The notes under the pieces are model-generated. The model was not told the DNA's origin. It searched no databases and saw only the letters and a list, made by a program, of their open reading frames with translations. 64,000 nt of DNA from a virus, in the IMG/VR virus record IMGVR_UViG_3300023196_003249, positions 1 through 64,000 of that record. One strand, written 5' to 3'. This document shows, in pieces, positions 2,326 through 62,130 of the stretch (position 1 is its first letter; the number at the start of each line of letters is the position of its first letter). A program made the translations under genes and the position numbers.

Positions 2326-3018
2326 TTACAATAAAAACTTATTAAGATTGTCTATTAATAAATTACCACCTTTAATTTTTGACTCCATAAATGGTTGAGC
2401 CTCAGCCCTTTTATTAAACATATATGAGCCAGGAGTACTAGGACTAGTAACAATATCCCAACATATCAATTCAAAATCATCTTGAACAATTAATTTATCA
2501 CCCATTTCATCTAACGAACCAACACCTCTTGAAGATACACCTACTCTAATACCCTTTCTAAGCATATTAGCAATATTATCACCTTCACAAGATATAATAC
2601 CCATGTTAATAAATCCTGGAGACATTAAGATTTCAATCTCACCAACTAAGGTATGTCCTTCCCACCAAATCTTTTTAATTTCATGTGATACCCTACTGTT
2701 AGAAATAACAGATGTTTCCGGATGGTCACTCTCACCAATAGCAGACCTACTATCTATTAGTTTTTGATATTCGATTGCTTGTTGTCTAAGAACAGCTTCA
2801 GGATATATTCTACCATTTTTATTCTCAACTCCATATTTTTGTAGAATTACAAATAAAATTAATGGCTCAACCATAGCAGGTGTTCCAGTACCAACCTTAC
2901 TCATTTCAGTTATGAATGGTTTATTTCTTATATCTTTAGGCTCGATGTATCCTGCATCACCTTCTATAAGTATTCCAAATCCAGGCTTACCAGCTCTAAT
3001 AGTTTTATATTCTGACAT
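2326..3018 (-). CDS. prohead core protease, T4 gp21-like
   Basis: NKNGRIYPEAVL, GESDHPE, KIWWEG and VGVSSRGVGSL match the gp21 blocks NRNKRLYPKRIL, GELNHP, MWWKG and PGVSSRGLGSL. Confidence 0.85.
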   Translation of the reverse strand: MSEYKTIRAGKPGFGILIEGDAGYIEPKDIRNKPFITEMSKVGTGTPAMVEPLILFVILQKYGVENKNGRIYPEAVLRQQAIEYQKLIDSRSAIGESDHPETSVISNSRVSHEIKKIWWEGHTLVGEIEILMSPGFINMGIISCEGDNIANMLRKGIRVGVSSRGVGSLDEMGDKLIVQDDFELICWDIVTSPSTPGSYMFNKRAEAQPFMESKIKGGNLLIDNLNKFLL

Positions 3019-5229: not shown

Positions 5230-7284
5230 TTATTCTTTAGGTAAAGACGACTCATTAGATAAATTAGTATCAATTTCATTAATCATTGAGTTAATAGTAT
5301 TGTTAACTATTAAACTTTTATCATATATTTTAACACTCTCTTTAACGAATTCCTCTTCTATTTCTAACCCTTTAGCCAATTCATTTAAATAGTTAGAACG
5401 CTTAATCGGTCTTCTTCTTTTACTACCTTTAAGTTTTCTACTTTCTTTAATAATGTTACCTTTCTTTCTAGCAATTTCAGCCATTTCAGCGTCAACTCCG
5501 ACATCGGCAGTATCTTCATCATCTCCAAAATCAGTTTCACCACCTAAATCAGTTTCACCAAATGGGTCATCACCCTCAGTATCTAAAGATTCATCATCCA
5601 AATCTAAATCAGGAGCGTCAAATCCACCACCGAAACCGCCACCGCCTCCAGCACCGCCAGAACCGCCTCCACCTTCAGGGTCTTCTTCTTCAAGTTGTCC
5701 ACCTTTCTTAGCCATTTCCATATCACCATAAATTCTATCAACTTTATCGTACATACCAGTGTACTTAATAACGTTAGCAGTATTTTCAAGTTCTGAAGCC
5801 GCAGCTTTCTCCATACGTTGCTCAATAAGGTCTTGTTTGATTTCATCATCCGACCAACCTAAGATTTCACGCTTACCTCTTGTCATAGACATTGTACCAA
5901 ATCCATTACCAGCATCAGCAACAGCATCTTTATATAAACTAACTTTAGCCGCCATATGTTCAACCTTAAGCATTTCCGCTTGAGTTGATGGATTGTTAAG
6001 TGTAAGTGTGAAATTATCTAAATCATCTTCGAACCCTAATAAGTATAAGTGTATAATTGCAATCTTATTTAATTCATGAAGCATTGCTTGTTGAATTCTA
6101 TTAATTGTTCTTGAGAATCTAATATCTTGTAACGCTAAGTTTTTCCCTTCACCAGTTGGTTCTTCAAACCCTAAGAAAGGTTTAGGTACTCTTAACGCAG
6201 TAAATAATTTTCTTTGTAAATATTCAATATCTGCAATTTGGTCTAAGTTCTGAGCTCCAGGCAATGTATCAATTGGTGTTGGAGAATCCTCACTCCTAAC
6301 TGGTACAAATATATCTTGGTCTAAACCTAACTGATTATAACGCAAATCCATTTGACCTGTTTGAGGGTCCACCAATGGAGCACGTTTAAATCGATTAGCA
6401 ATCTCATTTACGTACTGTTCTACATCTTCGTTATCAATGTTACCCACAAATATCTTGTATACACGTCTTTCTGGCGCTCTGGTTACACGATATACTAGCA
6501 TTGCATCCTCAGACAGTATAAGTTGCTTCCAAATCCTTCTAGCCTTTTCTAAGAAGCTCGTACCGTATGGTAACTTCCTATCATCACCTAATAATCTAAA
6601 GTGGGCTACTTGCCAAGAATTGAAAGTAACGTCTTTACCTTTCCAAAAGAATTTAGTTTTATTTTTTGTATCATCCTTATTAACCCCTTCTAATTGAGCT
6701 GGAGAAATAATACCATGAATATCATTCTCTCTACGTTCAATCTCAAAGTTAGGTAATTGTCTAGCACCTATAACTCCACCTTTATCGTCAATATTTAGGT
6801 GAACGAAATTATCACCATACTTACAAGTGTTTCTAGTCCACATTGGTAAAGCGGTGTGAATATCTAATCTATTTACAAATAAATCTTCAAGAATTCTTTT
6901 TACACGTTTACTTCCAGAGTAAATGTTAATTATATCTCCTTTATCATTTGGAGTCGTAGACTCTTCCATCATAACATCTAAAGCTGCTGAAATCTCTGGA
7001 TAAAATTCCATTGTTTCGAAATCAGAATACGAACCAACTCTTGTAGTTTCATAATGAATAGCTTGTTGATACAACTCACCATCCACTTTAGTCCACATGT
7101 TAGCTAAGTACTTAGTTTGTTGTGCTTGTAATTTAGCCGTTTCAAACTCTTCTTTAGAAGTAGTTTTAAGTATCTCGGTGTTACCCATTGAATACCTATT
7201 ACTTCTCTTAGCATGAGGATTAAGACCTTCTTTTCCAAAAACATTATTAAGCTTTTGGTATACAGTCAATTTATTTTTTGCCAT
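5230..7284 (-). CDS. portal protein (gp20-like) with long Gly-rich/acidic/basic C-terminal extension
   Basis: 684-aa ORF immediately downstream of TerL, in T4 order. The size of the core fits a portal. The family call rests on synteny plus general resemblance. Confidence 0.7.
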   Translation of the reverse strand: MAKNKLTVYQKLNNVFGKEGLNPHAKRSNRYSMGNTEILKTTSKEEFETAKLQAQQTKYLANMWTKVDGELYQQAIHYETTRVGSYSDFETMEFYPEISAALDVMMEESTTPNDKGDIINIYSGSKRVKRILEDLFVNRLDIHTALPMWTRNTCKYGDNFVHLNIDDKGGVIGARQLPNFEIERRENDIHGIISPAQLEGVNKDDTKNKTKFFWKGKDVTFNSWQVAHFRLLGDDRKLPYGTSFLEKARRIWKQLILSEDAMLVYRVTRAPERRVYKIFVGNIDNEDVEQYVNEIANRFKRAPLVDPQTGQMDLRYNQLGLDQDIFVPVRSEDSPTPIDTLPGAQNLDQIADIEYLQRKLFTALRVPKPFLGFEEPTGEGKNLALQDIRFSRTINRIQQAMLHELNKIAIIHLYLLGFEDDLDNFTLTLNNPSTQAEMLKVEHMAAKVSLYKDAVADAGNGFGTMSMTRGKREILGWSDDEIKQDLIEQRMEKAAASELENTANVIKYTGMYDKVDRIYGDMEMAKKGGQLEEEDPEGGGGSGGAGGGGGFGGGFDAPDLDLDDESLDTEGDDPFGETDLGGETDFGDDEDTADVGVDAEMAEIARKKGNIIKESRKLKGSKRRRPIKRSNYLNELAKGLEIEEEFVKESVKIYDKSLIVNNTINSMINEIDTNLSNESSLPKE

Positions 7285-7344: not shown

Positions 7345-9159
7345 TTACTTTGTACCACTGAATAACCACATATATTTACCAGTTGGGTCTTGCATATTTT
7401 TAGCAACAGTACTATGGAAATTAGGTTTTTTAGTTGATTTTTTACCTCTATCTTTTCTAGATACGAAGTTTTCACCTTGGTAGAAATCTTCTGAAGACTT
7501 ACCACCAGTCATAACCCAACCTTTAAGCATAGCTTTAGTCGCAGCTTTAGATTCTTTTAATTTCTTAAATGAACTCTCAGCAACCCACAAAGCATAACCT
7601 AATGCCATTAATAAATCATCATGATACCCATCCATATGGTCAGCACGACCACTTTTAAATACAAAGGTTCTCATTTCACTAACCAACCTTTTTGAACGAA
7701 CTATAACTCCATTGGTTCTAATCATCATCTCTAAGTGTCCAATCAAAGGTGTTCTTACACCAGCTGCACAGTTAAATCCAGGATACTTACCTTCATCAGT
7801 ATAAGTGGTTATCTTACTTGTAACCTTATCCAATGGTCTATTAGTTGCATCACCATAATACAAGTTAGGAGTTCCCAATGTTTTTAAAACATTAATACAT
7901 CCAACACCCCAACCACCAGTTATATCAACAACAACCATAGCGTCATAAATTCTAGCATACTCATCAACAAAATAACCTAATAAATCTGATTGAACTTTTC
8001 CTTTATATTCCATAACTTGAGTCATAGTTGTAAAATCTAATACAACTATGGTAGATGAATCCTCACCATCACCTCTAGCAACATCGGCCGATAATATATA
8101 TTGATGCCCATCAACAGGTTCTTCCCATATCCAAAATTCATCATCTTCACCAGAAGTAAATTTAGGAACTTCTACATTATGCTTCTCTTGATGTGAAATG
8201 AATTTATCATCGATAACGTTACCCCCAGAACCTAAGAAAGAAACATCTAACTCTTGAGCAATTCTACGTTTATCCCAGTTCATTGCTTCACACATCTCCA
8301 CATACCACTTAGCCGTAGGACTATAACCATCCTTAACTTTTCTAGCATATGACTCAAAAGTCCATTCTACCTCCTCAATAACATCATCAGTTTCATCATG
8401 AACCCATTTTAACCCAGGATTATATCTAGGGTCTTGATACCATTTCATTTCTATGATATTATACTTATTCTTACCAGCGATTGATTGCTCATAAGTTTTA
8501 TGGTATAACTCATCCATACCGTTAGGTGTGGAAATCAATATACATTTACCCCCAGTACCTAACGAGGTAATAGCTGCAGCATATAATTCTGCCCCCTTCT
8601 CAACGAAAGCTGCCTCATCAAATATTAAAAAGGTTGGTGTAAATCCCCTCAAGGCATCCGTAGATGTTGCAACCGCAATTACTGTACTACCATTTACCAA
8701 TTCTAATTCAGTTTGATTTTTAGCAATGAAAATATCTTTAGCTTCATTCTCCTTACTACCACAATACTCTTCACCCCATACCCATCTAGGATATTGAATC
8801 AAGTACTCTTTAATACCTTTAAGGAATTTTTGTGCTAATTTTAATTTATTAGCAATGACTAAAATAGTCTCAGGGTTTTTAGGGTCAGCAAATGCTATCT
8901 TAGTAGCCATATAAGCCTGTGTAACGGTTGATATCCCAGCCTGTCTTGGTTTGGTTACAATATTATATCTATGGGTCTCATAGTCTTGTATAATCTCACT
9001 CTGTTTTTTAAATAAATTAAAAGGTACGAAACCTTCTTGCGTTTTATCAAAAGTTGTCAAATAATTCTTAATAGCATATTCCGGGCTAATTAAGCAATTA
9101 GTGTACTCCATTAATATTTCTTCACCTGTTAACATATAGTTTTTAATAATAAATATCAT
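7345..9159 (-). CDS. terL: terminase large subunit (gp17-like)
   Basis: Walker A-like KPRQAGISTV and Walker B LIFDEAAF. RNase H-like nuclease block ADVARGDGEDSSTIVVLD. The start could instead be an internal Met at 9135 or 9111. Confidence 0.9.
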   Translation of the reverse strand: MIFIIKNYMLTGEEILMEYTNCLISPEYAIKNYLTTFDKTQEGFVPFNLFKKQSEIIQDYETHRYNIVTKPRQAGISTVTQAYMATKIAFADPKNPETILVIANKLKLAQKFLKGIKEYLIQYPRWVWGEEYCGSKENEAKDIFIAKNQTELELVNGSTVIAVATSTDALRGFTPTFLIFDEAAFVEKGAELYAAAITSLGTGGKCILISTPNGMDELYHKTYEQSIAGKNKYNIIEMKWYQDPRYNPGLKWVHDETDDVIEEVEWTFESYARKVKDGYSPTAKWYVEMCEAMNWDKRRIAQELDVSFLGSGGNVIDDKFISHQEKHNVEVPKFTSGEDDEFWIWEEPVDGHQYILSADVARGDGEDSSTIVVLDFTTMTQVMEYKGKVQSDLLGYFVDEYARIYDAMVVVDITGGWGVGCINVLKTLGTPNLYYGDATNRPLDKVTSKITTYTDEGKYPGFNCAAGVRTPLIGHLEMMIRTNGVIVRSKRLVSEMRTFVFKSGRADHMDGYHDDLLMALGYALWVAESSFKKLKESKAATKAMLKGWVMTGGKSSEDFYQGENFVSRKDRGKKSTKKPNFHSTVAKNMQDPTGKYMWLFSGTK

Positions 9160-9234: not shown

Positions 9235-10467
9235 TTAGAACCAATCTTCATCGTCAATATTATCCAAATCTTCAGGTGTGAAGAAATCATCATCACTTAT
9301 GTGACTCATAGCATCATCAAATTCATCACTCTTAAGTTCATCAATAACCTCATCGATAATTTCTTGAACTTTAGCCTTACCACTTCTAGTACCCAACATG
9401 ATTTCTCTCATAACTTCATTAAACTCATCAACAGGTAGAGCTACTAACTCAATATACACGTGATGCTTAAGAGCAAAATGTTCTGGTGGGATAGATTCTA
9501 AGAACTTCTCCCAAATTGGTGGACCTAATCTCATATCCCAAGTTTCAGCGTTCATAAAGTCAGCCTTACCCATTGCATACTTAGCAACACCTGGCTCTTT
9601 AGGTAATCCATGAGCAGAAAGTATTTCCATAACACCTTTAACTAATTCATGAATCAAAACTGGAAACGTCATAGCCTCGGCAGTTATTTTAGGGATATCC
9701 CCTTCACCTTTAGGAAATTCAACACTCACACCACCACCAGCAATTTTAGGTGTATTACCATCCTCCATCATGTAAGCATAATCAGCTCCTGACATAATCT
9801 TAGAATAGTTATGTGGTAATTGAGGGTCCATATCTTGTAATTCTGTATCAACCATATGAAACATGTGGTTAACTTTTTTAGCCGACCCTTGAATCATAGC
9901 ATTGATAAACCTACGTTTATATACCTCACCATTTGCTTTAACAAGTTCTGCGTGACTATCAAATTTACTATCACCATCAGCATCCGGGGTTAATTTAGGT
10001 GGATTCTTATTAATCTCTAATTGAGAAAAATCTGTAGTTAAATTAGCAATGATTTCAACTTCACTTTCGTCAATATCATATTCATCTCTTACAAGATTAA
10101 TAGCTAATTGTTCTAATTCCTCTTTATGTCGTTTTTCAATTTGAACTGTACCCATTAACATTTGACCTTGTTCTTGGTAAAATGATTGTAAATCAGCAAC
10201 TTCAGTTCCGTGATGTCTTTTAAATGTTTTTAAAACATCAGCAAATCGTTTAGACATTAGCTTCTCTTCAAAATGAGATTCATCACTCTCTGGAAAGATA
10301 GGATGAGTACCAAGTGAATGCGCTCTGTCTCTTAATTGTTTAGCTAATCTAGGGTTTAATCTTTCAGCATGACTATCTTCATAAGTCATACGACTTTCGT
10401 TTAGATTGTTTTCCCCACTTTTTTTAGCTAATGCTCTAGCGGCAATATCTTTATACTTGTCAGACAT
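9235..10467 (-). CDS. hypothetical protein
   Basis: 410-aa ORF upstream of terL. No motif recognised. Confidence 0.6.
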   Translation of the reverse strand: MSDKYKDIAARALAKKSGENNLNESRMTYEDSHAERLNPRLAKQLRDRAHSLGTHPIFPESDESHFEEKLMSKRFADVLKTFKRHHGTEVADLQSFYQEQGQMLMGTVQIEKRHKEELEQLAINLVRDEYDIDESEVEIIANLTTDFSQLEINKNPPKLTPDADGDSKFDSHAELVKANGEVYKRRFINAMIQGSAKKVNHMFHMVDTELQDMDPQLPHNYSKIMSGADYAYMMEDGNTPKIAGGGVSVEFPKGEGDIPKITAEAMTFPVLIHELVKGVMEILSAHGLPKEPGVAKYAMGKADFMNAETWDMRLGPPIWEKFLESIPPEHFALKHHVYIELVALPVDEFNEVMREIMLGTRSGKAKVQEIIDEVIDELKSDEFDDAMSHISDDDFFTPEDLDNIDDEDWF

Positions 10468-10468
10468 A

Positions 10469-10810
10469 TTATTTGTTTTTAATGTAGTTAACTAAATCTT
10501 TCTTTTTGATTCTAGGTTTAACATCTTCCTTAATGGTAACTACGTGTTTATTTTTATCTTCTAATTCTTTCATAACTGCATCAAACCCTTCATATTGAAT
10601 TCCATGTTCAATTGAGTTATTAGCTTGGTCACCACCACTTAATTGGTCAATTTCAGCCTTATCTTTAGCATCATCTTCTTCTCCCTCAGTTTGAACAATA
10701 TTTATTTCAGCATCTGGTGTCACATCTACTAACTTCTTAACCTCATCTTTTTGGTCAATAGCAGTATCTATTGTCATATTGTAATCCTCTTCTTTAATTT
10801 TTTTAGCCAT
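10469..10810 (-). CDS. hypothetical acidic protein
   Basis: ORF abutting its neighbours. Confidence 0.5.
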   Translation of the reverse strand: MAKKIKEEDYNMTIDTAIDQKDEVKKLVDVTPDAEINIVQTEGEEDDAKDKAEIDQLSGGDQANNSIEHGIQYEGFDAVMKELEDKNKHVVTIKEDVKPRIKKKDLVNYIKNK

Positions 10811-11216
10811 CCTTTTGTGTTTTTTCGTATTTTATATTTATATCGTTAGCATATAATAAATCACTAACTTCCTTTATCGGCATACCAAAATGAAATACTA
10901 ATCTTTCATCTGGATAATCTTCTAATCCTTCAATATTTTGCCAAGCCAATGGCATTACTTTATCCATTGCATCCCACATTGAAAACTGTTCATTATGTTG
11001 TGCCAATGTTAATCGTATTCCAGTGCTAATATCACCAACTTGCTTTATAAGTTTTTTATACGGTGGGTGTGGATTACCCCCTGCTGGGTATGTATCCCAT
11101 TCCTCACCATCAATATCCTCAGTTGTATCAGAAAATATAAATTGATAGGTGTAATTACCTTTATAGTCTTGTGACCTATCATGTATATAAATTAGAAATA
11201 ACTTACTCATTACCAA
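10803..11216 (-). CDS. hypothetical protein
   Basis: ORF with 8-nt and 14-nt overlaps to its neighbours. Confidence 0.55.
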   Translation of the reverse strand: MVMSKLFLIYIHDRSQDYKGNYTYQFIFSDTTEDIDGEEWDTYPAGGNPHPPYKKLIKQVGDISTGIRLTLAQHNEQFSMWDAMDKVMPLAWQNIEGLEDYPDERLVFHFGMPIKEVSDLLYANDINIKYEKTQKDG

Positions 11217-12279
11217 GCTCTGTTATTGTAGGTTCAGATTCACTAAATCCTAATAATTCTAAATTCTGAAGAGGGTGACCATAAAAATCAACATCAACCG
11301 CATATCTTTTACCATCTACTATATCAGAAACAAATTGATAAACCCAAGGTTCATTATAATCTTCTGGCTTTTGAACTATCTCATTACTATTACTAAATAA
11401 AACTTCTTTAGCCTCTCCATTAACTCTAAACTTAATAACTACTTCTTCTTTTTCATCTTGACCACTAAATCTAGTGCTATCAATATACTCAAGTTCTTTA
11501 CCCTCAGCTTTAGGCTCTGGGTCTGGAATACCCTCTGGAACTATAGTCCAAGGTTTACTTCTCCTGCTAGGTTTAACCGCTGGTTTTGTAGTTGGTTTTG
11601 TAATTGGTTCAGCTGGTGAACTATCTAATCTTAAACTTTCTCTTACCATATCTTTAATATTTGAAGCAAAGATACGACTTTTATTTTGATTTTCCAAGTT
11701 TAAATACTTATTTTCTTCCATACCACCATCTTCAACACCTAAAGAAGGGTCCTCAAATACCGTCTTACCTAGATAATTAGGGTTATGACCCTCTTCCATA
11801 AATTCTTCTTCATCAGCAGGAACTGGAACTCCACCATCCATATTATCATTGCTACTATCAATAGCTTCTTCACCAGCCATATCACCAGCCATATCACCAG
11901 CACCTTCACCACCACCATTAGTACTTGATGATTTAACTTTATTAATAATATCGGTTTGGTCTTCTTGGTCCATAGAACCAGAATTAGTTGCGGATAAAAC
12001 AGAGTTTATTGCAAACTTCTCTAAATCATAATCAGGTTCACCTACAGTTTCAGTATATTTCCTAAGACTTTGACCTAATTTTCCAGATAATTGTTGTATG
12101 TATTTTTCAGGAGATTCTTCCTCACTAGCTTCTACACCAGCATCGAATGGCTCATCATCAAAAGGTTTATCACCACCCATATCTTCACCACTCATATCTT
12201 CACCACCAAATGGGTCATCTGACATCTCTGGTTCTGGGAACGGCTCTTCTTGAACCTCAGAACCCATCTCTGGAGCCAA
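11203..12279 (-). CDS. acidic Pro/Glu-rich protein; probable downstream part of a -1 fusion with 12327..13076
   Basis: The annotated start is TTG and the first ATG is at 12267. The frame stays open upstream to 12342, inside an A10 run. Confidence 0.55.
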   Translation of the reverse strand: MAPEMGSEVQEEPFPEPEMSDDPFGGEDMSGEDMGGDKPFDDEPFDAGVEASEEESPEKYIQQLSGKLGQSLRKYTETVGEPDYDLEKFAINSVLSATNSGSMDQEDQTDIINKVKSSSTNGGGEGAGDMAGDMAGEEAIDSSNDNMDGGVPVPADEEEFMEEGHNPNYLGKTVFEDPSLGVEDGGMEENKYLNLENQNKSRIFASNIKDMVRESLRLDSSPAEPITKPTTKPAVKPSRRSKPWTIVPEGIPDPEPKAEGKELEYIDSTRFSGQDEKEEVVIKFRVNGEAKEVLFSNSNEIVQKPEDYNEPWVYQFVSDIVDGKRYAVDVDFYGHPLQNLELLGFSESEPTITELGNE

Positions 12280-12326
12280 TGGTTCAGGAGATGGGTTATC
12301 TAATTTAAGTTTAAACTTGGTTTCAG

Positions 12327-13076
12327 TTATTTCTTTTTTTTTTCAGCGCTATGAACTCCTTTATCTATATTACCAAGGGCAGTACTAATACTTAACTTGT
12401 TTTCAATAGGAGTTTGCTTAACTTCAGTAAGTTTTCTAACCTCAAGAATCATTCTATCGATAGCTTTCTCAGTTTCAGTTAATTCAACATCATTTTCTTC
12501 TAATGTTTCTTCACCTTCAACAACATCTTCTTCTTCAACAACAGGTGGAGTATCCACATCCGGGTTACCAGTTTCACCAGTGTCAGTAATGATTTCCTCT
12601 TCATGACCTTCATTTTTACCTGGAGTTTTAACAGTACCCATTAATTTGTCTGGTTGACTTGGTTTGATAGGGTCACTATAAGACTCAAAAGATTCAGTCA
12701 TTAAATTATCATTCTTAAGAATGTTAATCATAGCATTAGCACCTAAAGCTTCATTAAGACTAATGAATTTAAGGTTAAGTTGTTTAGCAGCTTTAGCGTA
12801 ACTTTCGAATACAACTTCAGCTTTATTTTGTAGCCCACCAATATAGTTAAAATCTTCAGCAACTAAGTTTTCTTTTTTGCTTGAAATTTTAATAAAATAT
12901 TTATGATTTTCTCTAACGATACCGTAAACATTTCCGTCAGGTCCTAATTTAGTTAACTCAACTACTGAACGTTTTACGTTTTCATTGATAGGTGTGATAC
13001 CCATCAAACTTTTCATTCTATTTACTTGAGAATTACCTTTTAAACCAGTTGGTTTTACATTATTCGATTTTTCCAT
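12327..13076 (-). CDS. hypothetical protein (upstream partner of candidate -1 fusion)
   Basis: 249-aa ORF ending HSAEKKKK-stop, two codons after the slippery heptamer. Confidence 0.6.
   Translation of the reverse strand: MEKSNNVKPTGLKGNSQVNRMKSLMGITPINENVKRSVVELTKLGPDGNVYGIVRENHKYFIKISSKKENLVAEDFNYIGGLQNKAEVVFESYAKAAKQLNLKFISLNEALGANAMINILKNDNLMTESFESYSDPIKPSQPDKLMGTVKTPGKNEGHEEEIITDTGETGNPDVDTPPVVEEEDVVEGEETLEENDVELTETEKAIDRMILEVRKLTEVKQTPIENKLSISTALGNIDKGVHSAEKKKK
12333..12343 (-). promoter_or_regulatory. candidate -1 recoding site: A10 run containing in-frame A_AAA_AAG
   Basis: Minus strand reads GCT GAA AAA AAA AAG AAA TAA. The -1 frame is open from the run into ORF 11203..12279. Confidence 0.45.
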
Positions 13077-13087
13077 TTATATTCTTT

Positions 13088-13306
13088 TTATAGTATTTGT
13101 GATGGCAATTTGATTGTTTTGTTACCTAATAAATAAACACCAGCAGCTCCAGTAATTGAAGTTACTATAATCTCAATTGAAGCACTTTCAGCCATTACAA
13201 CTGAGATACCGTTAAGGGTTATAGTCCCTGCAGTACCACAATATACTTGAGTATATGTGTAGTTTTCTAAGTCAGCATCAGTTGATAAGTGTATTACTCT
13301 ATTCAT
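13088..13306 (-). CDS. hypothetical protein
   Basis: 72-aa ORF with a late-like motif 9 nt upstream. Confidence 0.45.
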   Translation of the reverse strand: MNRVIHLSTDADLENYTYTQVYCGTAGTITLNGISVVMAESASIEIIVTSITGAAGVYLLGNKTIKLPSQIL

Positions 13307-13315
13307 CTATTTAGT

Positions 13316-13330
13316 TTTCTTAATAAATAT
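13316..13330 (-). promoter_or_regulatory. late-like promoter motif ATATTTATTAAGAAA
   Basis: 9 nt upstream of the ATG at 13306. Confidence 0.4.
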
Positions 13331-13368
13331 AAGAAAAAAAGGTAAAAATCTTTATTTGTGTATAAAAC

Positions 13369-13821
13369 TTAAAATGATAGTATTGCCGACTTAACTTTAA
13401 AGGTTAACTTAACACCAGCCAAACTATCATCTTTAAAATCTAAAGTGCAAAAATCTATATTTTTTATTTTCCCAGTAAGAATCCATTTCTCAACACATAT
13501 ACCAGTCGGGTCTAACATTTCAACTTCAATATTCATTTCAGATGGCTTACCATCTCTCTTTTTACCTTTAAGAAGTTTTAACATCTCTAATTCTTGAATC
13601 CCATCCATTAGAACTTTACTAGTTGATGGAGAAATTCCATCATGTAATTCAAATACAATGTCAGACCACTTACCTTTTATGGCGTTATAAGTTGGGCGAC
13701 TCGCTTTATGTGTTAAACATCTACCATCTTCAAATTTAAAAACGTCAGGGTATTTTACAATAAATCTATTCTTTCTCTTGAATTCAATTTGGTTGGGTAC
13801 TTTATGTAATAATTCACTCAT
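13369..13821 (-). CDS. hypothetical protein
   Basis: Start moved to Met11 (MSELLHK), because the ATATTTATTAATAAA motif at 13831-13845 lies inside the longer ORF. Confidence 0.55.
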   Translation of the reverse strand: MSELLHKVPNQIEFKRKNRFIVKYPDVFKFEDGRCLTHKASRPTYNAIKGKWSDIVFELHDGISPSTSKVLMDGIQELEMLKLLKGKKRDGKPSEMNIEVEMLDPTGICVEKWILTGKIKNIDFCTLDFKDDSLAGVKLTFKVKSAILSF

Positions 13822-13830
13822 ATCTATTTG

Positions 13831-13845
13831 TTTATTAATAAATAT
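13831..13845 (-). promoter_or_regulatory. late-like promoter motif ATATTTATTAATAAA
   Basis: 9 nt upstream of the ATG at 13821. Confidence 0.4.
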
Positions 13846-13861
13846 GAGCAAATCAATTATT

Positions 13862-15193
13862 TTAGTTAGATAAAGGCGCTTTTATTGAATCATGAGATTT
13901 ATAACCTTCAATAATAAAATCGTCAATCTCTAAATTATCTATCCAATAATTAACTCCATCAAGTGTAGACGTATCTCTATCATGATTCCAAAACTCATCA
14001 TTAATAATCAATTCAGGTAATGTAAAAGGTTCTCTACTTTTTAATGGTAATGTAAGTTTAGATAATTCTACCTTTAGTACCTGTTCCCTATCCCTTATTT
14101 CGGCTGCAGCCTCATAACGTTGCTCTTTAATAAGTTCCAATTTTTTCTTTTGAACACTAACATACTCTCCATACGTCTCAGGAGACAACTCTTTTAATAT
14201 TATATTTAATTGATTATCAGATAATTCAGACCCTATTTGTTCCCTAGCTTGGTCTATATGATTTAAGTATAAATGAGTATCACCCAAATTACCAATCAAT
14301 TCTCCTGGAATCATATTTACTTCCTTGGCAAGTATCTCTAATAACAAACCGTATGACGCAATGTTAAATGGTAACCCTAAGAACGTATCTACTGAACGTT
14401 GATTCCAACTTAATGATAATTCTCGTTCTGGAACACTTGATAAATCTATATTATCCATACTATTCTCTGGACTTACTTGGTGTAAATACCTGCTATCCCA
14501 TATTTCTACTCGTTCTTCTAAACTTAACTCTCTAGTATAACATTGAAATCCGTAGTGGCATGGTGGTAACGTCATTTGATTTAACTCTCCAACGTTCCAT
14601 GCGTTAACCATCAACCTCCTTGAATCAGGATTGTTTTTAAGGTTATGAATTAATTCTGCAATTTGGTCAATATGTGGCTTTTTAAAGTCATATTTAAATT
14701 CACCACTAGAATATGTTTCACCAGTTTTAAATGATTTATAATCCCCATATTCCCAATGTCTCCATTGCTTACCATAGATAGGACCTAACTCACCCCACTC
14801 TTCAGCAAACTTATCATCAGTTTTAATCTTTTCAACAAACTCTTTCATCGATAAAATGTCAAATCTATTGGAATGTATTGTTGGATGATTATTATGATAA
14901 CGTGTATAAGCTTTATAAGCATCACCATTCCAAATGTTACACCCATTCTCTACAAGATACTTGATATTAGTATCGCCACGTAGAAACCATATTAATTCTG
15001 TTACTATAACTTTCCATGGCATTTTTTTAGTTGTAAGTAATGGAAAACCATCAGCCATGTTATGTCTTATAGTTCTACCGAAAACTGATTTAGTTCCAGT
15101 TCCGGTTCTATCTTTCTTCACCACCCCTACCTCTAATATGTCCTGCAGAAGGTCTACGTATTGTTTATCTAATTTATTTATTTTTTTCTCCAT
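13862..15193 (-). CDS. thyA: thymidylate synthase (ThyA type) with unusual in-frame insertions
   Basis: DRTGTGTKSVFG, LPPCHYGFQCY, NQRSVDTFLGLPFNIASY, DTHLY.NH and a C-terminal GY..H..IKAP. 443 aa, against about 264-320 for typical ThyA. Confidence 0.9.
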   Translation of the reverse strand: MEKKINKLDKQYVDLLQDILEVGVVKKDRTGTGTKSVFGRTIRHNMADGFPLLTTKKMPWKVIVTELIWFLRGDTNIKYLVENGCNIWNGDAYKAYTRYHNNHPTIHSNRFDILSMKEFVEKIKTDDKFAEEWGELGPIYGKQWRHWEYGDYKSFKTGETYSSGEFKYDFKKPHIDQIAELIHNLKNNPDSRRLMVNAWNVGELNQMTLPPCHYGFQCYTRELSLEERVEIWDSRYLHQVSPENSMDNIDLSSVPERELSLSWNQRSVDTFLGLPFNIASYGLLLEILAKEVNMIPGELIGNLGDTHLYLNHIDQAREQIGSELSDNQLNIILKELSPETYGEYVSVQKKKLELIKEQRYEAAAEIRDREQVLKVELSKLTLPLKSREPFTLPELIINDEFWNHDRDTSTLDGVNYWIDNLEIDDFIIEGYKSHDSIKAPLSN

Positions 15194-15506: not shown

Positions 15507-15935
15507 TTATAGTAATGTTTTATAAACTTCGAATCTAGCGGTCAAATCATCTAACTTATAAAGGTCTATAGTATCTGTTGCACCAACATCATCAATTATC
15601 TTAGCCATGTCACTCATAATACTAGTTAAATATTCTACAGCTTCATTCTTAATCGCTTGATTAAGTTCCTCTTTAATTAACTTGGTATCAACTTTACCAT
15701 CATTGATAGTTTCATATACATCCTTTATATACTTGTTAAAAACCACACCTTGACTTGAATCGGTTTCAAACCTAGTATAATCTGTCATAGGTACGTTATT
15801 ATACGTATATTGCCCACCATAATTGAATGTGATTGTTAACGCCTGTGTTTTTAGGTTGTAATTTGACGCTAAAATGTTAGACGATTCATAAATTCCTCTG
15901 ATGTTTCCATCTTTTTGTACTCTTTTTTTTATCAT
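15507..15935 (-). CDS. hypothetical protein
   Basis: ORF with a TAtcTTTG promoter box upstream (about 15964-15971, minus strand). Confidence 0.55.
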   Translation of the reverse strand: MIKKRVQKDGNIRGIYESSNILASNYNLKTQALTITFNYGGQYTYNNVPMTDYTRFETDSSQGVVFNKYIKDVYETINDGKVDTKLIKEELNQAIKNEAVEYLTSIMSDMAKIIDDVGATDTIDLYKLDDLTARFEVYKTLL

Positions 15936-16045: not shown

Positions 16046-18496
16046 ATGAAATGCGACATTGGTCCAAAGGTTAACGAAATAGTACAAAATGCAATAAACG
16101 AGGCACACTCTTATGATGATACCGAGTTATTGCCAGAACATATATTATTGGCTTTAATTTTAGATGATACTAATGAAGCTATTGAGGCATTACGTAAAAG
16201 ACATGTTGATGTTGATAAAATGTTTGAAACTTTATCGTTGTTTTTGAAAAGTAACACATATAGAAAACGTAACGCTTATTCAGTTTCAGATTTAAAACCT
16301 AGCGTTGGTGCAACATTCATCATCAATCAAATGGACCACGAATGTGATAGGTTAGGTGATAAGATTGTAGAACCTAATCATTTAATGTTAGGGATATTAA
16401 AAGGTAAATCACAAGCACAGAGATTATTAATGAAAAATAATATAAATTATATAACTTTTAAAAAGGAAATTATGGGAGAATATGAAAACGATGATATGGA
16501 AGAACAAAGTCCAATCAGACCTAGGAAAACTAGAAACGTTCAAGAACAAACAAGTAAAACACCAGGGTTAGATAAATTCTGCGTAGATATTTCAAAAGCC
16601 GCAGCCGATGGTAAATTAGACCCAGTTGTTGGTCGTGAAAAAGAAGTTCGTAGAGTTACTACGATACTAGCACGAAGAAAAAAGAACAACCCAGTACTTA
16701 TTGGAGAACCAGGAGTTGGTAAAACTGCAATAGTAGAAGGGTTAGCATCACTTATACACAGTGGTGATGCACCTCAACCACTTTTAAATAAAAGAATCTT
16801 CTCATTAGATTTAGCATCAGCAGTTGCTGGAACTAAATATAGAGGTCAGTTCGAGGAAAGAATGAAACACATTTTAACTGAATTAAAAGCGAATAAAGAT
16901 ATTATCTTATTCATTGATGAATTACATACAATCGTTGGTGCTGGTAACGCATCCGGTTCATTGGATGCATCTAACATCTTCAAACCTGCTTTAGGTAGAG
17001 GTGAAATACAAGTTATTGGTGCAACTACTCTAGATGAGTTTAGAGAAAATATAGAAAAAGATGGTGCTTTAAATAGAAGATTTCAACAAGTATTGGTGGA
17101 AGAACCAACATTTGAAGAAACAGTTGAAATCCTAGAGAACATTAAAGGAAATTATGAAAACCATCACAATGTTATTTATAGTTCTGATATTATAGCTGAA
17201 ATTACTAAGTTAGCTGACAGATATATTCCAGAAAGAGCCATGCCAGATAAAGCCATCGATGTTTTAGATGAGGTTGGTGCAGCTACAAAAATAGATATTA
17301 AAGCGCCAGATGATATTGTAGAACTTAAAGGTGAACTTGCTAAAAGTAGAGAAGAAAAGATGCAAATCGTTGCTGAACAACGTTACGAAGAAGCGGCCAC
17401 ATATTTGAAGAAAGAAGAAGAAATCATGGCTGAAATCGGTAAATGGGAAGATGGTATTAAAACTAATATTACCACTATTACTCATGACATGGTAACTAAA
17501 GTAGTGTCAACTACAACAGGAATTCCATTAGATAAACTTTCAACTACTGAAAATAACACACTTAAAAACTTAGATAAAGATATCAAAGCGACTGTTATCG
17601 GTCAAGATGAGGCTGTTGATAAAATCTCTAGAGCAATTAAGCGTAGTAGATTAGGTGTTAAGAGTCAACATAAACCAATTGGTTCATTTATGTTCTTAGG
17701 TTCAACTGGTGTAGGTAAAACTCACCTTGCTAAAGTATTGGCTGAACAAGTATTCGGTGATGCTGAAGCCTTAATTAGAGTTGATATGTCAGAATACATG
17801 GAGAAACATGCAATGTCTAAATTGATTGGAGCACCTCCAGGATACGTAGGATACGGTGAGGGTGGTAAATTAACTGAAGCGGTTCGTAGAAAACCTTATT
17901 CAGTAATATTATTTGATGAGATTGAAAAAGCTCATGATGATGTATTTAACTTATTATTACAAGTGTTAGATGAAGGTCATTTAACAGATTCAAATGGTAT
18001 AAAAGTGAATTTCAAAAACACTATGATTATCATGACATCTAATATTGGTGTGAAAGAATTATCACAATTTGGTGGTGGTATTGGATTTGAAACTGGTAAC
18101 TCAATAGTTAATGAGGAAAGCAGAGCTAAGAGTATAATCAAAAAAGCTCTTAAGAAAAAATTCAAACCAGAATTCTTGAATAGAATTGATGATACTATTA
18201 TCTTTAATGGCTTACAACCAGAACACATTGAAGTTATCATCAAGCATGAGTTAAATGAAGTTAAAAAGCGTATCGCTGAATTAGGTATTGCGTTAACGTT
18301 AACTAAAGATGCAATGACTTTCATAGCAAAAGAAGGTTACCATAAAGAGTATGGTGCAAGACCTCTTAATAGAGCAATACAGAAGTATGTAGAGGACCCT
18401 ATTGCTGATGCCCTTATCAACGGAGATTTAGTTGATGGTGGTAAAATTAAGTTAGGATATAGTGAGAAGAAAGGTGTCACTAGTACCATTTCGTAA
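16046..18496 (+). CDS. clpC: ClpC-type class I AAA+ unfoldase (Clp/Hsp100 family)
   Basis: Two Clp_N repeats ([16 protein letters not shown]). D1 has [15 protein letters not shown] and ILFIDELH. Short UVR-like middle segment [10 protein letters not shown]2 has [12 protein letters not shown] and [14 protein letters not shown] loop at the position of the ClpP-docking tripeptide. Confidence 0.9.
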
Positions 18497-23534: not shown

Positions 23535-23753
23535 TTAGCTTTTTTTTTTAACGTTAAGTACTCTTCCAGTTTTAACCAATTCAGCCAATTGACTTTCAGT
23601 GACAGTCACCTTTTTAGTTTTTTTAACCGCTGGTTTCTTTGTTAATTCACCCGCTTCTACTCTTTCTGCGATAGTTTTTTCAACTATGCTATGTATTAAG
23701 TCAACTAACTTCCCTTCAGCAATTGTAACTTTTTTGATTTTTTTATCTGCCAT
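23535..23753 (-). CDS. small basic protein with two KK.KKVT(I/V).E..L..L repeats
   Basis: Internal duplication KKIKKVTIAEGKLVDLI / KKTKKVTVTESQLAELV. Confidence 0.5.
   Translation of the reverse strand: MADKKIKKVTIAEGKLVDLIHSIVEKTIAERVEAGELTKKPAVKKTKKVTVTESQLAELVKTGRVLNVKKKS
23540..23549 (-). promoter_or_regulatory. candidate -1 recoding site: A10 run containing in-frame A_AAA_AAA
   Basis: Minus strand reads GTT AAA AAA AAA AGC TAA. The -1 frame runs into ORF 23260..23475. Confidence 0.4.
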
Positions 23754-61917: not shown

Positions 61918-62010
61918 ACTTGTCATAGGGAAACTGCGACAGGGCGGCCAGATACACCAACTGGGGAAGAGTAGACTCCACCCTACGCAATGTTTTCCTC
62001 TTTTTTTTTT
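61918..62010 (+). ncRNA. candidate ~90-nt small RNA containing the conserved 35-nt core, ending in T10
   Basis: TAccTTTG box at 61910-61917, core at 61965-61999, GGAAGA/TTTTCC pairing, T10 at 62001-62010. No ORF. Confidence 0.3.
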
Positions 62011-62068: not shown

Positions 62069-62130
62069 CTATTTTTTTTTAATTATTTTCACTTTTTATT
62101 TGGTGGTCTCGATAATTAGCCCTACCTTTG

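What the first reader, a model, noticed from the sequence alone, without database searches (positions are those of the whole stretch)
12267..12347. A10 run with a dnaX-type A_AAA_AAG heptamer places the next ORF in the -1 frame (candidate programmed frameshift or hidden single gene)
On the minus strand the 249-aa ORF ends GCT GAA AAA AAA AAG AAA TAA (stop at 12329-12327). The ten-A run (plus-strand T10, 12334-12343) contains A AAA AAG in the zero frame (12339-12333). This is the heptamer used for -1 frameshifting in E. coli dnaX. The downstream 358-aa acidic ORF has no ATG at its listed start (TTG at 12279; first ATG at 12267). Translating its frame upstream gives 22 further open codons (KKKEITETKFKLKLDNPSPEPL), closed only by a TGA at 12345-12343 at the edge of the run. 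A tandem -1 slip would yield ..HSAEKKK-EITETKFKLKLDNPSPEPLAPEMGSEVQEEP.. The Pro/Glu-rich linker has the same composition as the sequence after the ATG, which argues that it is translated. Two readings are possible. Recoding (ribosomal or transcriptional slippage) would make a short form of 249 aa and a fusion of about 630 aa. Alternatively the true run is A11 and this is one gene. The same geometry recurs at 23540-23549.
Basis: partly seen in the sequence, partly recalled or inferred. Interest (0 to 1): 0.75.

Follow-up and report, generated by a model that had tools for sequence, protein, structure and literature searches.

The report
Conserved poly-A recoding site joining two phage genes
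A run of ten A's between two genes of an uncultivated giant phage is a conserved slippage site, seen in about 100 distinct relatives, that lets the phage make a 249-residue protein and a 624-residue fusion from one stretch of DNA.

Summary
ORF1 (12327-13076, minus strand) ends GAA AAA AAA AAG AAA TAA. The A10 run is at 12334-12343. The -1 frame is open from the TGA at 12343-12345 into the 358-aa acidic ORF2.

It is not an assembly error or a chance layout. Among 104 distinct junctions from IMG/VR, JGI/Tara, ENA and GTDB contigs, 103 carry a run of at least 9 A's at this point. Of these, 94 are split with the downstream ORF in the -1 frame (A10 in 80, A9 in 10, A11 in 3, A12 in 1). One is split +1, and 8 are read through in frame.

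The codons between the run and the first ATG encode a conserved peptide (xLTETKF/YKLKL) that changes mainly at third codon positions. In many relatives the -1 ORF has no ATG for 100-186 codons. The fusion must therefore be made by recoding.

The conserved element is the long homopolymer, which occurs in all three codon phases. The dnaX heptamer is in frame only in this subclade. No conserved hairpin is present, and the genome barely uses Shine-Dalgarno sites.

My best mechanism is RNA polymerase slippage adding one A (about 0.55). Ribosomal -1 slippage or sliding is the main rival (about 0.3). The protein's function is unknown; it lies in a T4-like head and packaging gene cluster.

The parts
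12327..13076 (-). ORF1, 249 aa, zero frame, ending ...HSAEKKKK*. This is the short product. The conserved N-terminal domain (about residues 1-128, 12693-13076) is followed by an acidic linker and a conserved helix just before the run.
   Evidence: One search lists the ORF. Alignments A1/A2 give 44-46 invariant columns in the N-domain. There are 234 relatives in IMG/VR and 410 in JGI metagenome contigs. No Pfam, PHROG or NCBIfam hit.
12334..12343 (-). A10 homopolymer (T10 on the plus strand). This is the slippage site and the conserved element of the cassette.
   Evidence: A run of at least 9 A's sits at the homologous position in 103 of 104 distinct junctions: A10 x80, A9 x10, A11 x3 and A12 x1 in the split -1 state. 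It occurs in all three codon phases. Lys codons elsewhere in ORF1 are 22% AAG, and other KKK stretches are mixed in 12 of 13 cases.
12333..12339 (-). A_AAA_AAG heptamer in the zero frame. It is a possible ribosomal -1 slip site and is present in frame only in this subclade.
   Evidence: Phase-2 runs make up 7 of 62 distinct IMG/VR junctions.
12327..12329 (-). Zero-frame stop TAA, two codons after the run. It overlaps the -1 frame codons ATA ACT (Ile-Thr).
   Evidence: In most relatives the zero-frame stop follows the run by 1-2 codons.
12343..12345 (-). TGA that closes the -1 frame immediately upstream. It confines any frame change to the run.
12268..12333 (-). The 22 -1 frame codons between the run and the first ATG (EITETKFKLKLDNPSPEPLAPE). 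They include the family-wide motif ETKFKLKLDNPSPEP (12280-12324). This stretch has no ATG and no GTG. Its only NTG codon is the TTG at 12279-12277, 4 codons before the ATG and downstream of the conserved motif.
   Evidence: The motif is conserved in 35 distinct sequences, with entropy 0.81/0.64/1.22 at codon positions 1/2/3. The ATG at 12267 has a GC-rich context, unlike the A/T-rich contexts of other starts.
11203..12267 (-). ORF2 body (354 aa from the ATG; stop at 11205-11203). It contains, in order:
- an acidic low-complexity region;
- a conserved helical domain (about 11920-12111);
- a Pro/Lys-rich motif;
- a C-terminal beta domain (about 11215-11493).
   Evidence: P0001 is a 100% match on a 360,451-bp contig. 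Alignment A3. AlphaFold2 gives pLDDT of about 90 for residues 281-373 of the -1 frame protein. No fold match at E<1e-3.
11203..13076 (-). Trans-frame coding region for the 624-aa ORF1-ORF2 fusion (...SAEKKK-EITETK...). This is the long product.
   Evidence: Single-ORF homologs cover both halves, for example P0007 (648 aa) aligning to query residues 1-613. They carry the run one A longer, in frame.

Best explanation
This is a conserved programmed recoding cassette in a late, head/packaging-region gene of an uncultivated giant phage with T4-like head genes.

The genome encodes the protein in two frames, joined at a run of ten A's.
- **Unaltered mRNA.** Standard decoding stops two codons after the run and gives the 249-aa ORF1 protein.
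- **Slipped mRNA.** In a fraction of transcripts, RNA polymerase slips on the A10/T10 tract and adds one A. Ordinary translation then runs from ORF1 into ORF2 and gives a 624-aa fusion with the same N-terminus.
- **Result.** The run therefore sets a fixed ratio of a short form to a long form.

**Shown:**
- the geometry;
- its conservation;
- purifying selection on the -1 frame peptide;
- the lack of any start codon in many relatives;
- selection for an unbroken homopolymer of at least 9 A's in any codon phase;
- the absence of the usual ribosomal frameshift stimulators.

**Inferred:** that the slipping enzyme is RNA polymerase rather than the ribosome; the ratio of the two products; and the role of the protein. 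A head-assembly or internal head role is a guess from gene neighbourhood only.

My confidence that some programmed recoding occurs here is about 0.9. My confidence that it is specifically transcriptional slippage is about 0.55.
For: 1. **The run length is reproducible.** Near-identical relatives from independent assemblies (ENA SPAdes contig L001, JGI L002) and divergent ones (L003, 51-67% aa identity) all show A10 followed by G and a stop. One variant is identical in five different metagenomes (L005, L007-L009, L018).

2. **The layout is conserved.** Of 104 distinct junctions, 94 are split with a -1 ORF of 150 to more than 700 codons opening at the run. One is split +1, 8 are read through in frame, and 1 has no run.

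3. **The -1 frame region upstream of any ATG is protein-coding.** KKK-x-[LIV]-x-E-T-K-[FY]-K-L-K-L is conserved, with variation concentrated at third positions. Protein alignments to relatives begin at fusion residues 250-252.

4. **Independent initiation is impossible in many lineages.** The first ATG in the -1 ORF lies 100-186 codons past the run in about 33 distinct loci, and is absent altogether in L180. The window's own ATG has an atypical GC-rich context.

5. **Single-ORF homologs exist and differ by exactly one extra A.** Examples are L100 TTA AAA AAA AAA AGT (A11), L102 A11, L101 A10 against the A9 split type, and L063/L070/L174 A11.

6. **The homopolymer itself is selected.**
   - The run is never shorter than 9.
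   - It occurs in codon phases 1, 2 and 3.
   - Lys codons elsewhere are 22% AAG, and other KKK stretches are mixed in 12 of 13 cases.
   - Published work places bacterial RNA polymerase slippage at runs of about 9 or more A/T. This includes two-ORF dnaX genes with A10 in Chlorobi (PMC5009743; PMC3711429).

7. **The stimulators expected for dnaX-type ribosomal frameshifting are missing.**
   - The 60 nt downstream fold at -1.7 to -2.6 kcal/mol in this subclade, and the mean z is -0.4 family-wide.
   - Shine-Dalgarno-like motifs occur at 3 of 64 starts.
   - TAnnTTTG is enriched, 129 against 91 +/- 8 expected. This fits a Bacteroidota-type host, whose ribosomes do not use SD pairing (PMC7797042, PMC10798248).

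8. **ORF1 and ORF2 are likely co-transcribed.** No terminator-like site lies between them.
Against: - There are no RNA or protein data. Transcript heterogeneity and the junction peptide have not been observed.
- Any run of at least 7 A's contains an in-phase A_AAA_AAA/G heptamer, so ribosomal tandem -1 slippage cannot be excluded from sequence.
- Ribosomes are also known to slide on long A tracts (PMC4363877).
- KKK is conserved in the protein, which accounts for part of the run (9 of the 10 A's).
- The host is unknown, and so is the RNA polymerase that transcribes this gene.
- The in-frame variants (5 of about 101 junctions sampled without bias) show that the DNA itself toggles between states. 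Some contribution from DNA-level variation is therefore possible.
Confidence: 0.55

Rival explanations
1. Ribosomal recoding. The mRNA carries A10 as in the genome. A fraction of ribosomes shifts to the -1 frame on the run, either by tandem tRNA-Lys slippage on A_AAA_AAG / A_AAA_AAA or by sliding on the poly(A) tract. The product would be the same 624-aa fusion.
For: - The window has the classic A_AAA_AAG in the zero frame.
- Every run of at least 7 A's offers an in-phase heptamer.
- All but one of the split junctions need a -1 shift, not +1.
- The AAGGAG/GAAGGNG 12-15 nt upstream in this subclade resembles the dnaX SD stimulator.
- Ribosome sliding on runs of iterated AAA codons is documented (PMC4363877).
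Against: - The dnaX-type heptamer phase is limited to one subclade.
- Seven A's would be enough for this mechanism, yet no junction has fewer than 9.
- No conserved hairpin or pseudoknot lies at a suitable distance.
- The SD-like motif is not conserved outside the subclade.
- The genome shows almost no SD usage.
- In Bacteroidia, SD-antiSD pairing is blocked, even at the prfB frameshift site (PMC10798248).
Confidence: 0.3
2. DNA-level phase variation. Replication slippage switches the genome between A10 (two genes, long form off) and A11 (one gene, long form on). The population carries both states and no RNA-level or ribosome-level recoding is needed.
For: - In-frame variants exist that are one A longer: L100, L101, L102, L063/L070/L174.
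- One A9 variant with +1 geometry exists (L015).
- Homopolymers are known hot spots for polymerase slippage (PMC3711429).
Against: - The split state is the consensus in 94 of 104 distinct junctions. It is stable across deep divergence (48-95% identity), while ORF2 remains under purifying selection.
- A lytic phage at low multiplicity could not keep an essential conserved ORF2 silent in more than 90% of genomes.
- The in-frame states cluster in particular lineages rather than alternating among close relatives.
Confidence: 0.07
3. No recoding occurs. ORF1 and ORF2 would be two separate genes, with ORF2 starting at ATG 12267, at TTG 12279, or by reinitiation. Alternatively, the locus is a frameshifted pseudogene or an assembly error.
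For: - Gene callers annotate ORF2 from MGS... in this subclade, and the Met is conserved there.
- A Met (DGMSTGLF) also follows the run in another clade.
Against: - The peptide upstream of those Mets is conserved with synonymous substitutions.
- Many lineages have no ATG for 100-186 codons that still encode the conserved motifs.
- Start contexts differ from all other genes.
- The identical run appears in independent assemblies.
- Both ORFs are intact and conserved in hundreds of loci.
Confidence: 0.05

Closest known systems
Programmed transcriptional slippage at A/T runs in bacteria: Thermus thermophilus dnaX (A9), two-ORF dnaX with A10 in Chlorobi, IS630/IS3-type transposases, Shigella spa13/mxiE (PMC5009743, PMC3711429)
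   Same: - A homopolymer of 9-10 A's lies at the junction of two overlapping frames.
- The run length is conserved whatever the codon phase.
- No RNA structure is needed.
- A short and a long product share an N-terminus.
- In-frame and out-of-frame orthologs coexist, as with dnaX.
   Different: - The gene family is different: an unannotated protein of a giant phage in a head/packaging gene cluster.
- The mechanism is not shown experimentally here.
- I found no earlier report of this in a tailed-phage late gene. This is a limited literature search, not proof of absence.
E. coli dnaX -1 programmed ribosomal frameshift (A_AAA_AAG with upstream SD and downstream stem-loop)
   Same: - The same heptamer lies in the zero frame in this window.
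- An SD-like AAGGAG sits about 15 nt upstream.
- Two products share an N-terminus.
   Different: - There is no downstream stem-loop.
- The heptamer phase and the SD-like motif are not conserved in relatives.
- The genome lacks SD usage.
- In dnaX the shift truncates the protein. Here it extends the protein by 376 residues.
Phage tail assembly chaperone G/GT (lambda) and E/E' (P2): conserved -1 frameshift in late operons
   Same: - A -1 frame change near the 3' end of a phage late gene gives an abundant short protein and a rarer C-terminally extended one.
- It is conserved across many phages despite sequence divergence.
   Different: - The locus is not between a tail tube gene and a tape-measure gene. 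The downstream genes are 137, 113 and 410 aa, then the large terminase.
- There is no homology to chaperone families.
- The products are much larger.
- The slip site is a long homopolymer, not a G_GGA_AAG-type heptamer.
T7 gene 10A/10B and retroviral Gag/Gag-Pol
   Same: A fixed minority of a structural-module protein is made with a C-terminal extension through a frame change. This sets the stoichiometry without separate regulation.
   Different: - Those systems are ribosomal -1 frameshifts on heptamers with RNA structures.
- A structural role is not shown for this protein.
Viral polymerase slippage or editing: paramyxovirus P/V and potyvirus P3N-PIPO (GA6)
   Same: A virus reaches an overlapping frame by adding a nucleotide in an A run during RNA synthesis.
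   Different: - Those are RNA viruses using their own RNA-dependent polymerases on shorter runs.
- This is a dsDNA phage, presumably using a multisubunit DNA-dependent RNA polymerase.

Membership tests
Programmed transcriptional slippage (realignment) cassette | Homopolymeric A or T run of about 9 or more nt at the frame junction | tested here: met
   A10 at 12334-12343. A run of at least 9 is present in 103 of 104 distinct homologous junctions, and none is shorter.
Programmed transcriptional slippage (realignment) cassette | The run is conserved as a homopolymer whatever its codon phase, with no dependence on X_XXY_YYZ phasing | tested here: met
   Among 62 distinct IMG/VR junctions the run starts at codon position 3 in 45, position 1 in 10 and position 2 in 7. 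AAG never interrupts the run, although 22% of other Lys codons are AAG.
Programmed transcriptional slippage (realignment) cassette | The mRNA population is heterogeneous in run length (A10, A11, ...) | not testable with these tools
   No transcript data were available.
Programmed transcriptional slippage (realignment) cassette | A trans-frame protein is produced and is functional | tested here: inconclusive
   The fusion is inferred from three observations: purifying selection on the start-less -1 frame region, single-ORF orthologs, and intact ORFs in hundreds of loci. No proteomic evidence exists.
dnaX-type -1 ribosomal frameshift cassette | A_AAA_AAG heptamer in the zero frame | tested here: met
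   It lies at 12339-12333. It is in phase only in this subclade.
dnaX-type -1 ribosomal frameshift cassette | Functional upstream SD-like stimulator about 10 nt 5' of the heptamer | tested here: not met
   AAGGAG lies about 15 nt upstream in this subclade only. Other clades have none. Only 3 of 64 gene starts have SD-like motifs.
dnaX-type -1 ribosomal frameshift cassette | Stable stem-loop or pseudoknot 5-9 nt 3' of the heptamer | tested here: not met
   The 60 nt downstream fold at -1.7 to -2.6 kcal/mol with z>0 in this subclade. The family mean z is -0.4.
Phage tail assembly chaperone (G/GT-type) | Position between the major tail/tube gene and the tape-measure gene | tested here: not met
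   The downstream genes are 137, 113 and 410 aa, then TerL and portal. A weak tube-like ORF upstream (PHROG 4542, E=3e-5) is absent from the relative L100.
Phage tail assembly chaperone (G/GT-type) | Sequence or profile similarity to known chaperone families | tested here: not met
   No Pfam, PHROG or NCBIfam hits. No PDB sequence hit of relevance. No fold match.
Phase-variable contingency locus (slipped-strand mispairing) | ON and OFF genotypes alternate frequently among close relatives | tested here: not met
   94 of 104 distinct junctions are in the same out-of-frame state across 48-95% identity. The in-frame states are lineage-specific.

The most novel reading that the evidence does not exclude
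These giant phages may use long A runs as a general, movable device. RNA polymerase slippage on the run would dose a long form of a head-assembly protein against a short form, in the manner of Gag/Gag-Pol.

In this reading, ORF1 acts as the assembly or targeting module. The conserved [LIV]-x-E just after the junction is a site for the T4 gp21-type prohead protease encoded at 2326-3018, which would release the ORF2 cargo inside the head.

The device sits at other junctions too:
- a second A10 site in the L180 lineage of the same protein family;
- possibly the site at 23540-23549 in this window.

Lineages also flip between A10 and A11, which would invert the ratio of the two products.
Probability: 0.15. 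Interest if true: 0.8.

Novelty: new member of a known kind. Interest (0 to 1): 0.62.

Why it matters
**Annotation.** Gene callers split this locus into two hypothetical proteins and start ORF2 at an internal Met. They therefore miss a conserved product of about 620-800 aa in hundreds of metagenomic phage contigs, several of which are 260-362 kb long.

**Recoding biology.**
- This is a large, natural comparative data set for poly-A slippage: about 100 distinct junctions, three codon phases, run lengths of 9-12, and both in-frame and out-of-frame states.
- The genomes appear to lack Shine-Dalgarno usage, so the classic ribosomal stimulators should not work in them.
- The locus is therefore a good place to separate transcriptional from ribosomal slippage experimentally.

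**Phage biology.** If transcriptional slippage is confirmed, it would add that mechanism to the ways tailed phages set the stoichiometry of late proteins.

Tried and rejected
**Similarity to cultured phages.**
- A nucleotide search of 10400-14000 and a protein search with the fusion both found nothing among 50,697 phage records.
- Only the portal finds distant relatives: Microcystis phage Mel-JY01 and Flavobacterium phage immuto, 38-39%.

**Function assignment.**
- Pfam, PHROGs and NCBIfam gave nothing for ORF1 or ORF2.
- PDB profile searches gave only spurious low-complexity hits.
- AlphaFold2 models had mean pLDDT of 61 and 56. Only the C-terminal beta domain was confident.
- Foldseek against PDB and BFVD gave no match at E<1e-3.

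**Stimulatory RNA structure.** Folding 60 nt downstream and 45 nt upstream of 62 junctions showed no conserved or unusually stable structure. An 8-bp CCCATCTC/GAGATGGG pairing about 37 nt downstream in the window is too far away. It also coincides with conserved NPS and EMG codons.

**SD stimulator.** Rejected because it is not conserved and the genome lacks SD usage.

**Tail-chaperone reading.** Rejected on gene order and lack of homology.

**Shared N-terminal leader.** I searched for other window proteins with the RMKxLMG leader, which would have suggested a capsid-targeting sequence. Only ORF1 has it.

**Prohead-protease site idea.** The [LIV]-x-E after the junction fits the T4 gp21 consensus, and a Peptidase_S77 gene is present. 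However, the [LIV] codon (NTA) plus the next base also forms the zero-frame stop TAA/TAG. The pattern could come from the stop codon, so I kept it only as speculation.

**Second site, 23540-23549.** No homolog of the -1 extension was found. The relative L103 reads the same A10 in frame. I do not count this site as support.

**Other scans.**
- tRNA scan: none found.
- Cluster-member names: none were informative.
Full report
**1. The observation**

On the minus strand the sequence reads ...CAT AGC GCT GAA AAA AAA AAG AAA TAA CTG AAA CC....
- ORF1 (12327-13076, 249 aa, ATG start) ends AEKKKK*.
- The ten-A run is at 12343-12334, and A_AAA_AAG is in the zero frame at 12339-12333.
- The -1 frame is closed by the TGA at 12345-12343. 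From there it reads KKKEITETKFKLKLDNPSPEPLAPEMGSEV... without a stop to 11203.
- The listed 358-aa ORF starts at the TTG at 12279, and the first ATG is at 12267.

All coordinates in the finding are correct. One extra A in the mRNA, or a -1 ribosomal slip on the run, gives a 624-aa fusion.

**2. Context**

The window is phage DNA with 33.5% G+C. On the same strand, downstream of ORF2, lie:
- ORFs of 137, 113 and 410 aa;
- a T4-type large terminase (7345-9159);
- a T4-type portal (5230-7284);
- further on, a T4 gp21-type prohead protease (Peptidase_S77, 2326-3018).

Upstream are a 72-aa ORF, a weak tube-like ORF and thymidylate synthase.

The exact ORF2 protein is on a 360,451-bp JGI contig, and relatives are on contigs of 260-362 kb. 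No cultured phage among 50,697 records has a homolog of ORF1 or ORF2. The closest cultured portals are from Microcystis phage Mel-JY01 and Flavobacterium phage immuto, at 38-39% identity.

Only 3 of 64 ORF starts have a Shine-Dalgarno-like motif, and starts sit in A/T-rich contexts. TAnnTTTG is over-represented, with 129 copies against 91 +/- 8 expected. These are Bacteroidota-like expression signals. The host is otherwise unknown.

**3. Comparative evidence that the layout is real and conserved**

A search with the conceptual fusion found 625 proteins.
- Most are either ORF2-like, annotated from an internal Met, or ORF1-like and ending ...KKKx.
- Some single proteins cover both halves, for example P0007 (648 aa, query residues 1-613).
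- Many alignments start at fusion residues 250-252. That is inside the 22 codons that have no ATG or GTG and whose only NTG is the TTG at 12279.

I fetched DNA for relatives from IMG/VR, JGI/Tara/ENA metagenomes and GTDB genomes. There were 234 matches in IMG/VR and 410 in the metagenome collection.

Among 104 distinct junction sequences:

| State | Count | Run lengths |
|---|---|---|
| Split, long ORF in -1 frame at the run | 94 | A10 x80, A9 x10, A11 x3, A12 x1 |
| Split, +1 geometry | 1 | A9 (L015) |
| Read through the run in frame | 8 | A11 x5, A10 x2, A9 x1 |
| No run | 1 | none |

Three of the eight in-frame cases were fetched deliberately.

Further points:
- The near-identical relatives L001 and L002 come from independent assemblies and have the same A10. 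So does L003, at only 51-67% protein identity.
- One variant recurs unchanged in five metagenomes.
- The in-frame versions differ from their split cousins by exactly one more A. Compare L100 (GCT TTA AAA AAA AAA AGT CTA ACT) with L098 (GCT TTA AAA AAA AAA GTC TAA CTG).

This rules out an assembly error at this locus.

**4. Evidence that the fusion is made**

- The -1 frame peptide after the run, KKK-x-[LIV]-x-E-T-K-[FY]-K-L-K-L, is conserved in 35 distinct DNA versions. Variation is concentrated at third codon positions (entropy 0.81/0.64/1.22 for positions 1/2/3).
- In many split lineages the -1 ORF has no ATG for 100-186 codons after the run. L180 has none at all. Yet these codons encode the conserved motifs.
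- In this window the ATG at 12267 is preceded by ccattggctccagag. This is unlike the A/T-rich leaders of the other genes.
- The -1 frame opens only 3-30 codons upstream of the run, so the frame change must occur at or very near the run.
- No terminator-like site separates the ORFs.

Together these make separate initiation untenable as the general explanation. ORF2 is expressed as an extension of ORF1.

**5. Which machine slips**

The conserved element is the homopolymer, not the dnaX heptamer.
- Among 62 distinct IMG/VR junctions the run begins at codon position 3 in 45, position 1 in 10 and position 2 in 7. Only the last group, which includes this window, has A_AAA_AAG in the zero frame.
- No junction has fewer than 9 A's, although 7 would be enough for a tandem tRNA slip.
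- Elsewhere in ORF1, 22% of Lys codons are AAG, and 12 of 13 other KKK stretches are mixed. The unbroken run is therefore selected.
- No conserved or unusually stable structure lies downstream or upstream. The mean z is about -0.4, and the free energy is -1.7 to -2.6 kcal/mol in this subclade.
- The AAGGAG about 15 nt upstream is confined to this subclade and coincides with conserved Glu-Gly codons.
- In Bacteroidia the anti-SD is sequestered, and SD pairing does not operate even at the prfB frameshift site (PMC7797042, PMC10798248).

Published work bears on both mechanisms.
- Bacterial RNA polymerase slippage occurs at runs of about 9 or more A/T and yields transcripts with extra bases (PMC5009743).
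- That work includes two-ORF dnaX genes with A10 in Chlorobi, predicted to use the same mechanism (PMC3711429).
- On the other side, any long A run contains an in-phase slippery heptamer.
- Ribosomes can also slide on poly(A) (PMC4363877).

My weights are: transcriptional slippage about 0.55, a ribosomal event about 0.3, DNA-level phase variation as the main route about 0.07, and no recoding about 0.05. Some form of programmed recoding comes to about 0.9.

**6. Evolutionary pattern**

The homopolymer is retained in lineages where it is in frame. L063, L070 and L174 have TTA AAA AAA AAA AGA TTA ACT, and L171 has A10 then G in frame. With a slippery run, both genotypes would make both products, but with the ratio inverted.

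In the L180 lineage the first run is in frame. A second A10 at the end of a 491-aa ORF leads into a 191-codon -1 ORF that has no ATG. The device therefore recurs at another junction of the same family.

**7. What the protein does**

The function is unknown. No family or fold match was found.

The long form contains, in order:
- a conserved N-domain;
- an acidic linker;
- a helix;
- KKK;
- the ETKFKLKL strand-like motif;
- acidic low-complexity sequence;
- a conserved helical domain;
- a Pro/Lys-rich motif;
- a confident C-terminal beta domain.

Its place next to terminase, portal and prohead protease suggests a head-assembly or internal head role. The [LIV]-x-E after the junction fits the T4 gp21 cleavage consensus (my own knowledge of T4). 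However, the NTA codon plus the next base also forms the zero-frame stop. I therefore treat this only as a hypothesis.

**8. The second site**

At 23540-23549 a 71-aa ORF ends GTT AAA AAA AAA AGC TAA, and the -1 frame stays open for 96 codons.
- Homologs match only the N-terminal 71 aa.
- In L103 the same A10 is read in frame into an unrelated C-terminus.

The geometry is real, but recoding there is unproven. A third A10 (62001-62010) does not sit at a coding junction.

**9. Verdict**

The finding is real and well supported as a conserved recoding cassette. It is a new member of a known kind: poly-A slippage that gives short and long forms of one protein. It lies in an unannotated gene family of widespread uncultivated giant phages.

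The dnaX analogy holds for the heptamer in this window but fails as a family description.

Noticed in passing
window 23538-23753 (-), run at 23540-23549: A second A10 has the same geometry. A 71-aa ORF ends ...LNVKKKS*, and the -1 frame continues for 96 codons (KKKLIRENNGSEIVK...). No homolog of the extension was found. The relative L103 (P0123) carries the same A10 but reads it in frame into an unrelated C-terminal module.
   Followed up: partly
L180 (MDTC01007576.1), second run 16 nt before the stop of the 491-aa ORF: In this lineage of the same protein family the first run is in frame. A second A10 (TTA AAA AAA AAA GAG AAG TAA) precedes a 191-codon -1 ORF with no ATG at all. The same device is therefore used at a different junction.
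   Followed up: partly
L063, L070, L174, L171 (P0051-P0064 lineage): Several distinct contigs have the run in frame. Three have A11 (TTA AAA AAA AAA AGA TTA ACT), and L171 has A10 then G. The fused state is therefore genuine in some lineages, and the homopolymer is kept there too.
   Followed up: partly
whole window; e.g. upstream of ORFs at 44-60 kb: Shine-Dalgarno motifs are almost absent (3 of 64 starts). TAnnTTTG is enriched (129 against 91 expected). A recurrent ttaaaac(c)a-like motif lies 10-15 nt upstream of many ATGs. The signals look Bacteroidota-type or phage-specific.
   Followed up: partly
window 62001-62010 (-) and 62072-62080 (-): A third A10 and a nearby A9 lie in a stretch with only short ORFs. 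They look intergenic, and their role is unknown.
   Followed up: no
window 13862-15193 (-): The thymidylate synthase is long (443 aa) and carries a C-terminal extension with a UvrB/UvrC (UVR) motif.
   Followed up: no
window 16046-18496 (+), 15507-15935 (-): A ClpB-like double AAA+ ATPase (816 aa) and a KTSC-domain protein flank the cluster. The same neighbours occur in the relatives L100 and L101, so the synteny is conserved across this phage group.
   Followed up: no
L185 (QCKH01000009.1, Prochlorococcus sp. AG-409-L21 single-cell genome) and L184 (PLXT01000052.1, Methanobacterium MAG): Relatives of ORF1 sit on 64-kb and 103-kb contigs filed under cellular genomes. These are probably phage contigs that were co-sorted or mis-binned. 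The Prochlorococcus one has an in-frame A9 and is the only host hint that differs from Bacteroidota.
   Followed up: no
window 12265-12296 (-): CCCATCTC (12296-12289) and GAGATGGG (12270-12263) could pair over 8 bp and cover the ATG at 12267. The pairing coincides with conserved NPS and EMG codons and has one mismatch in L003. I did not pursue it.
   Followed up: no
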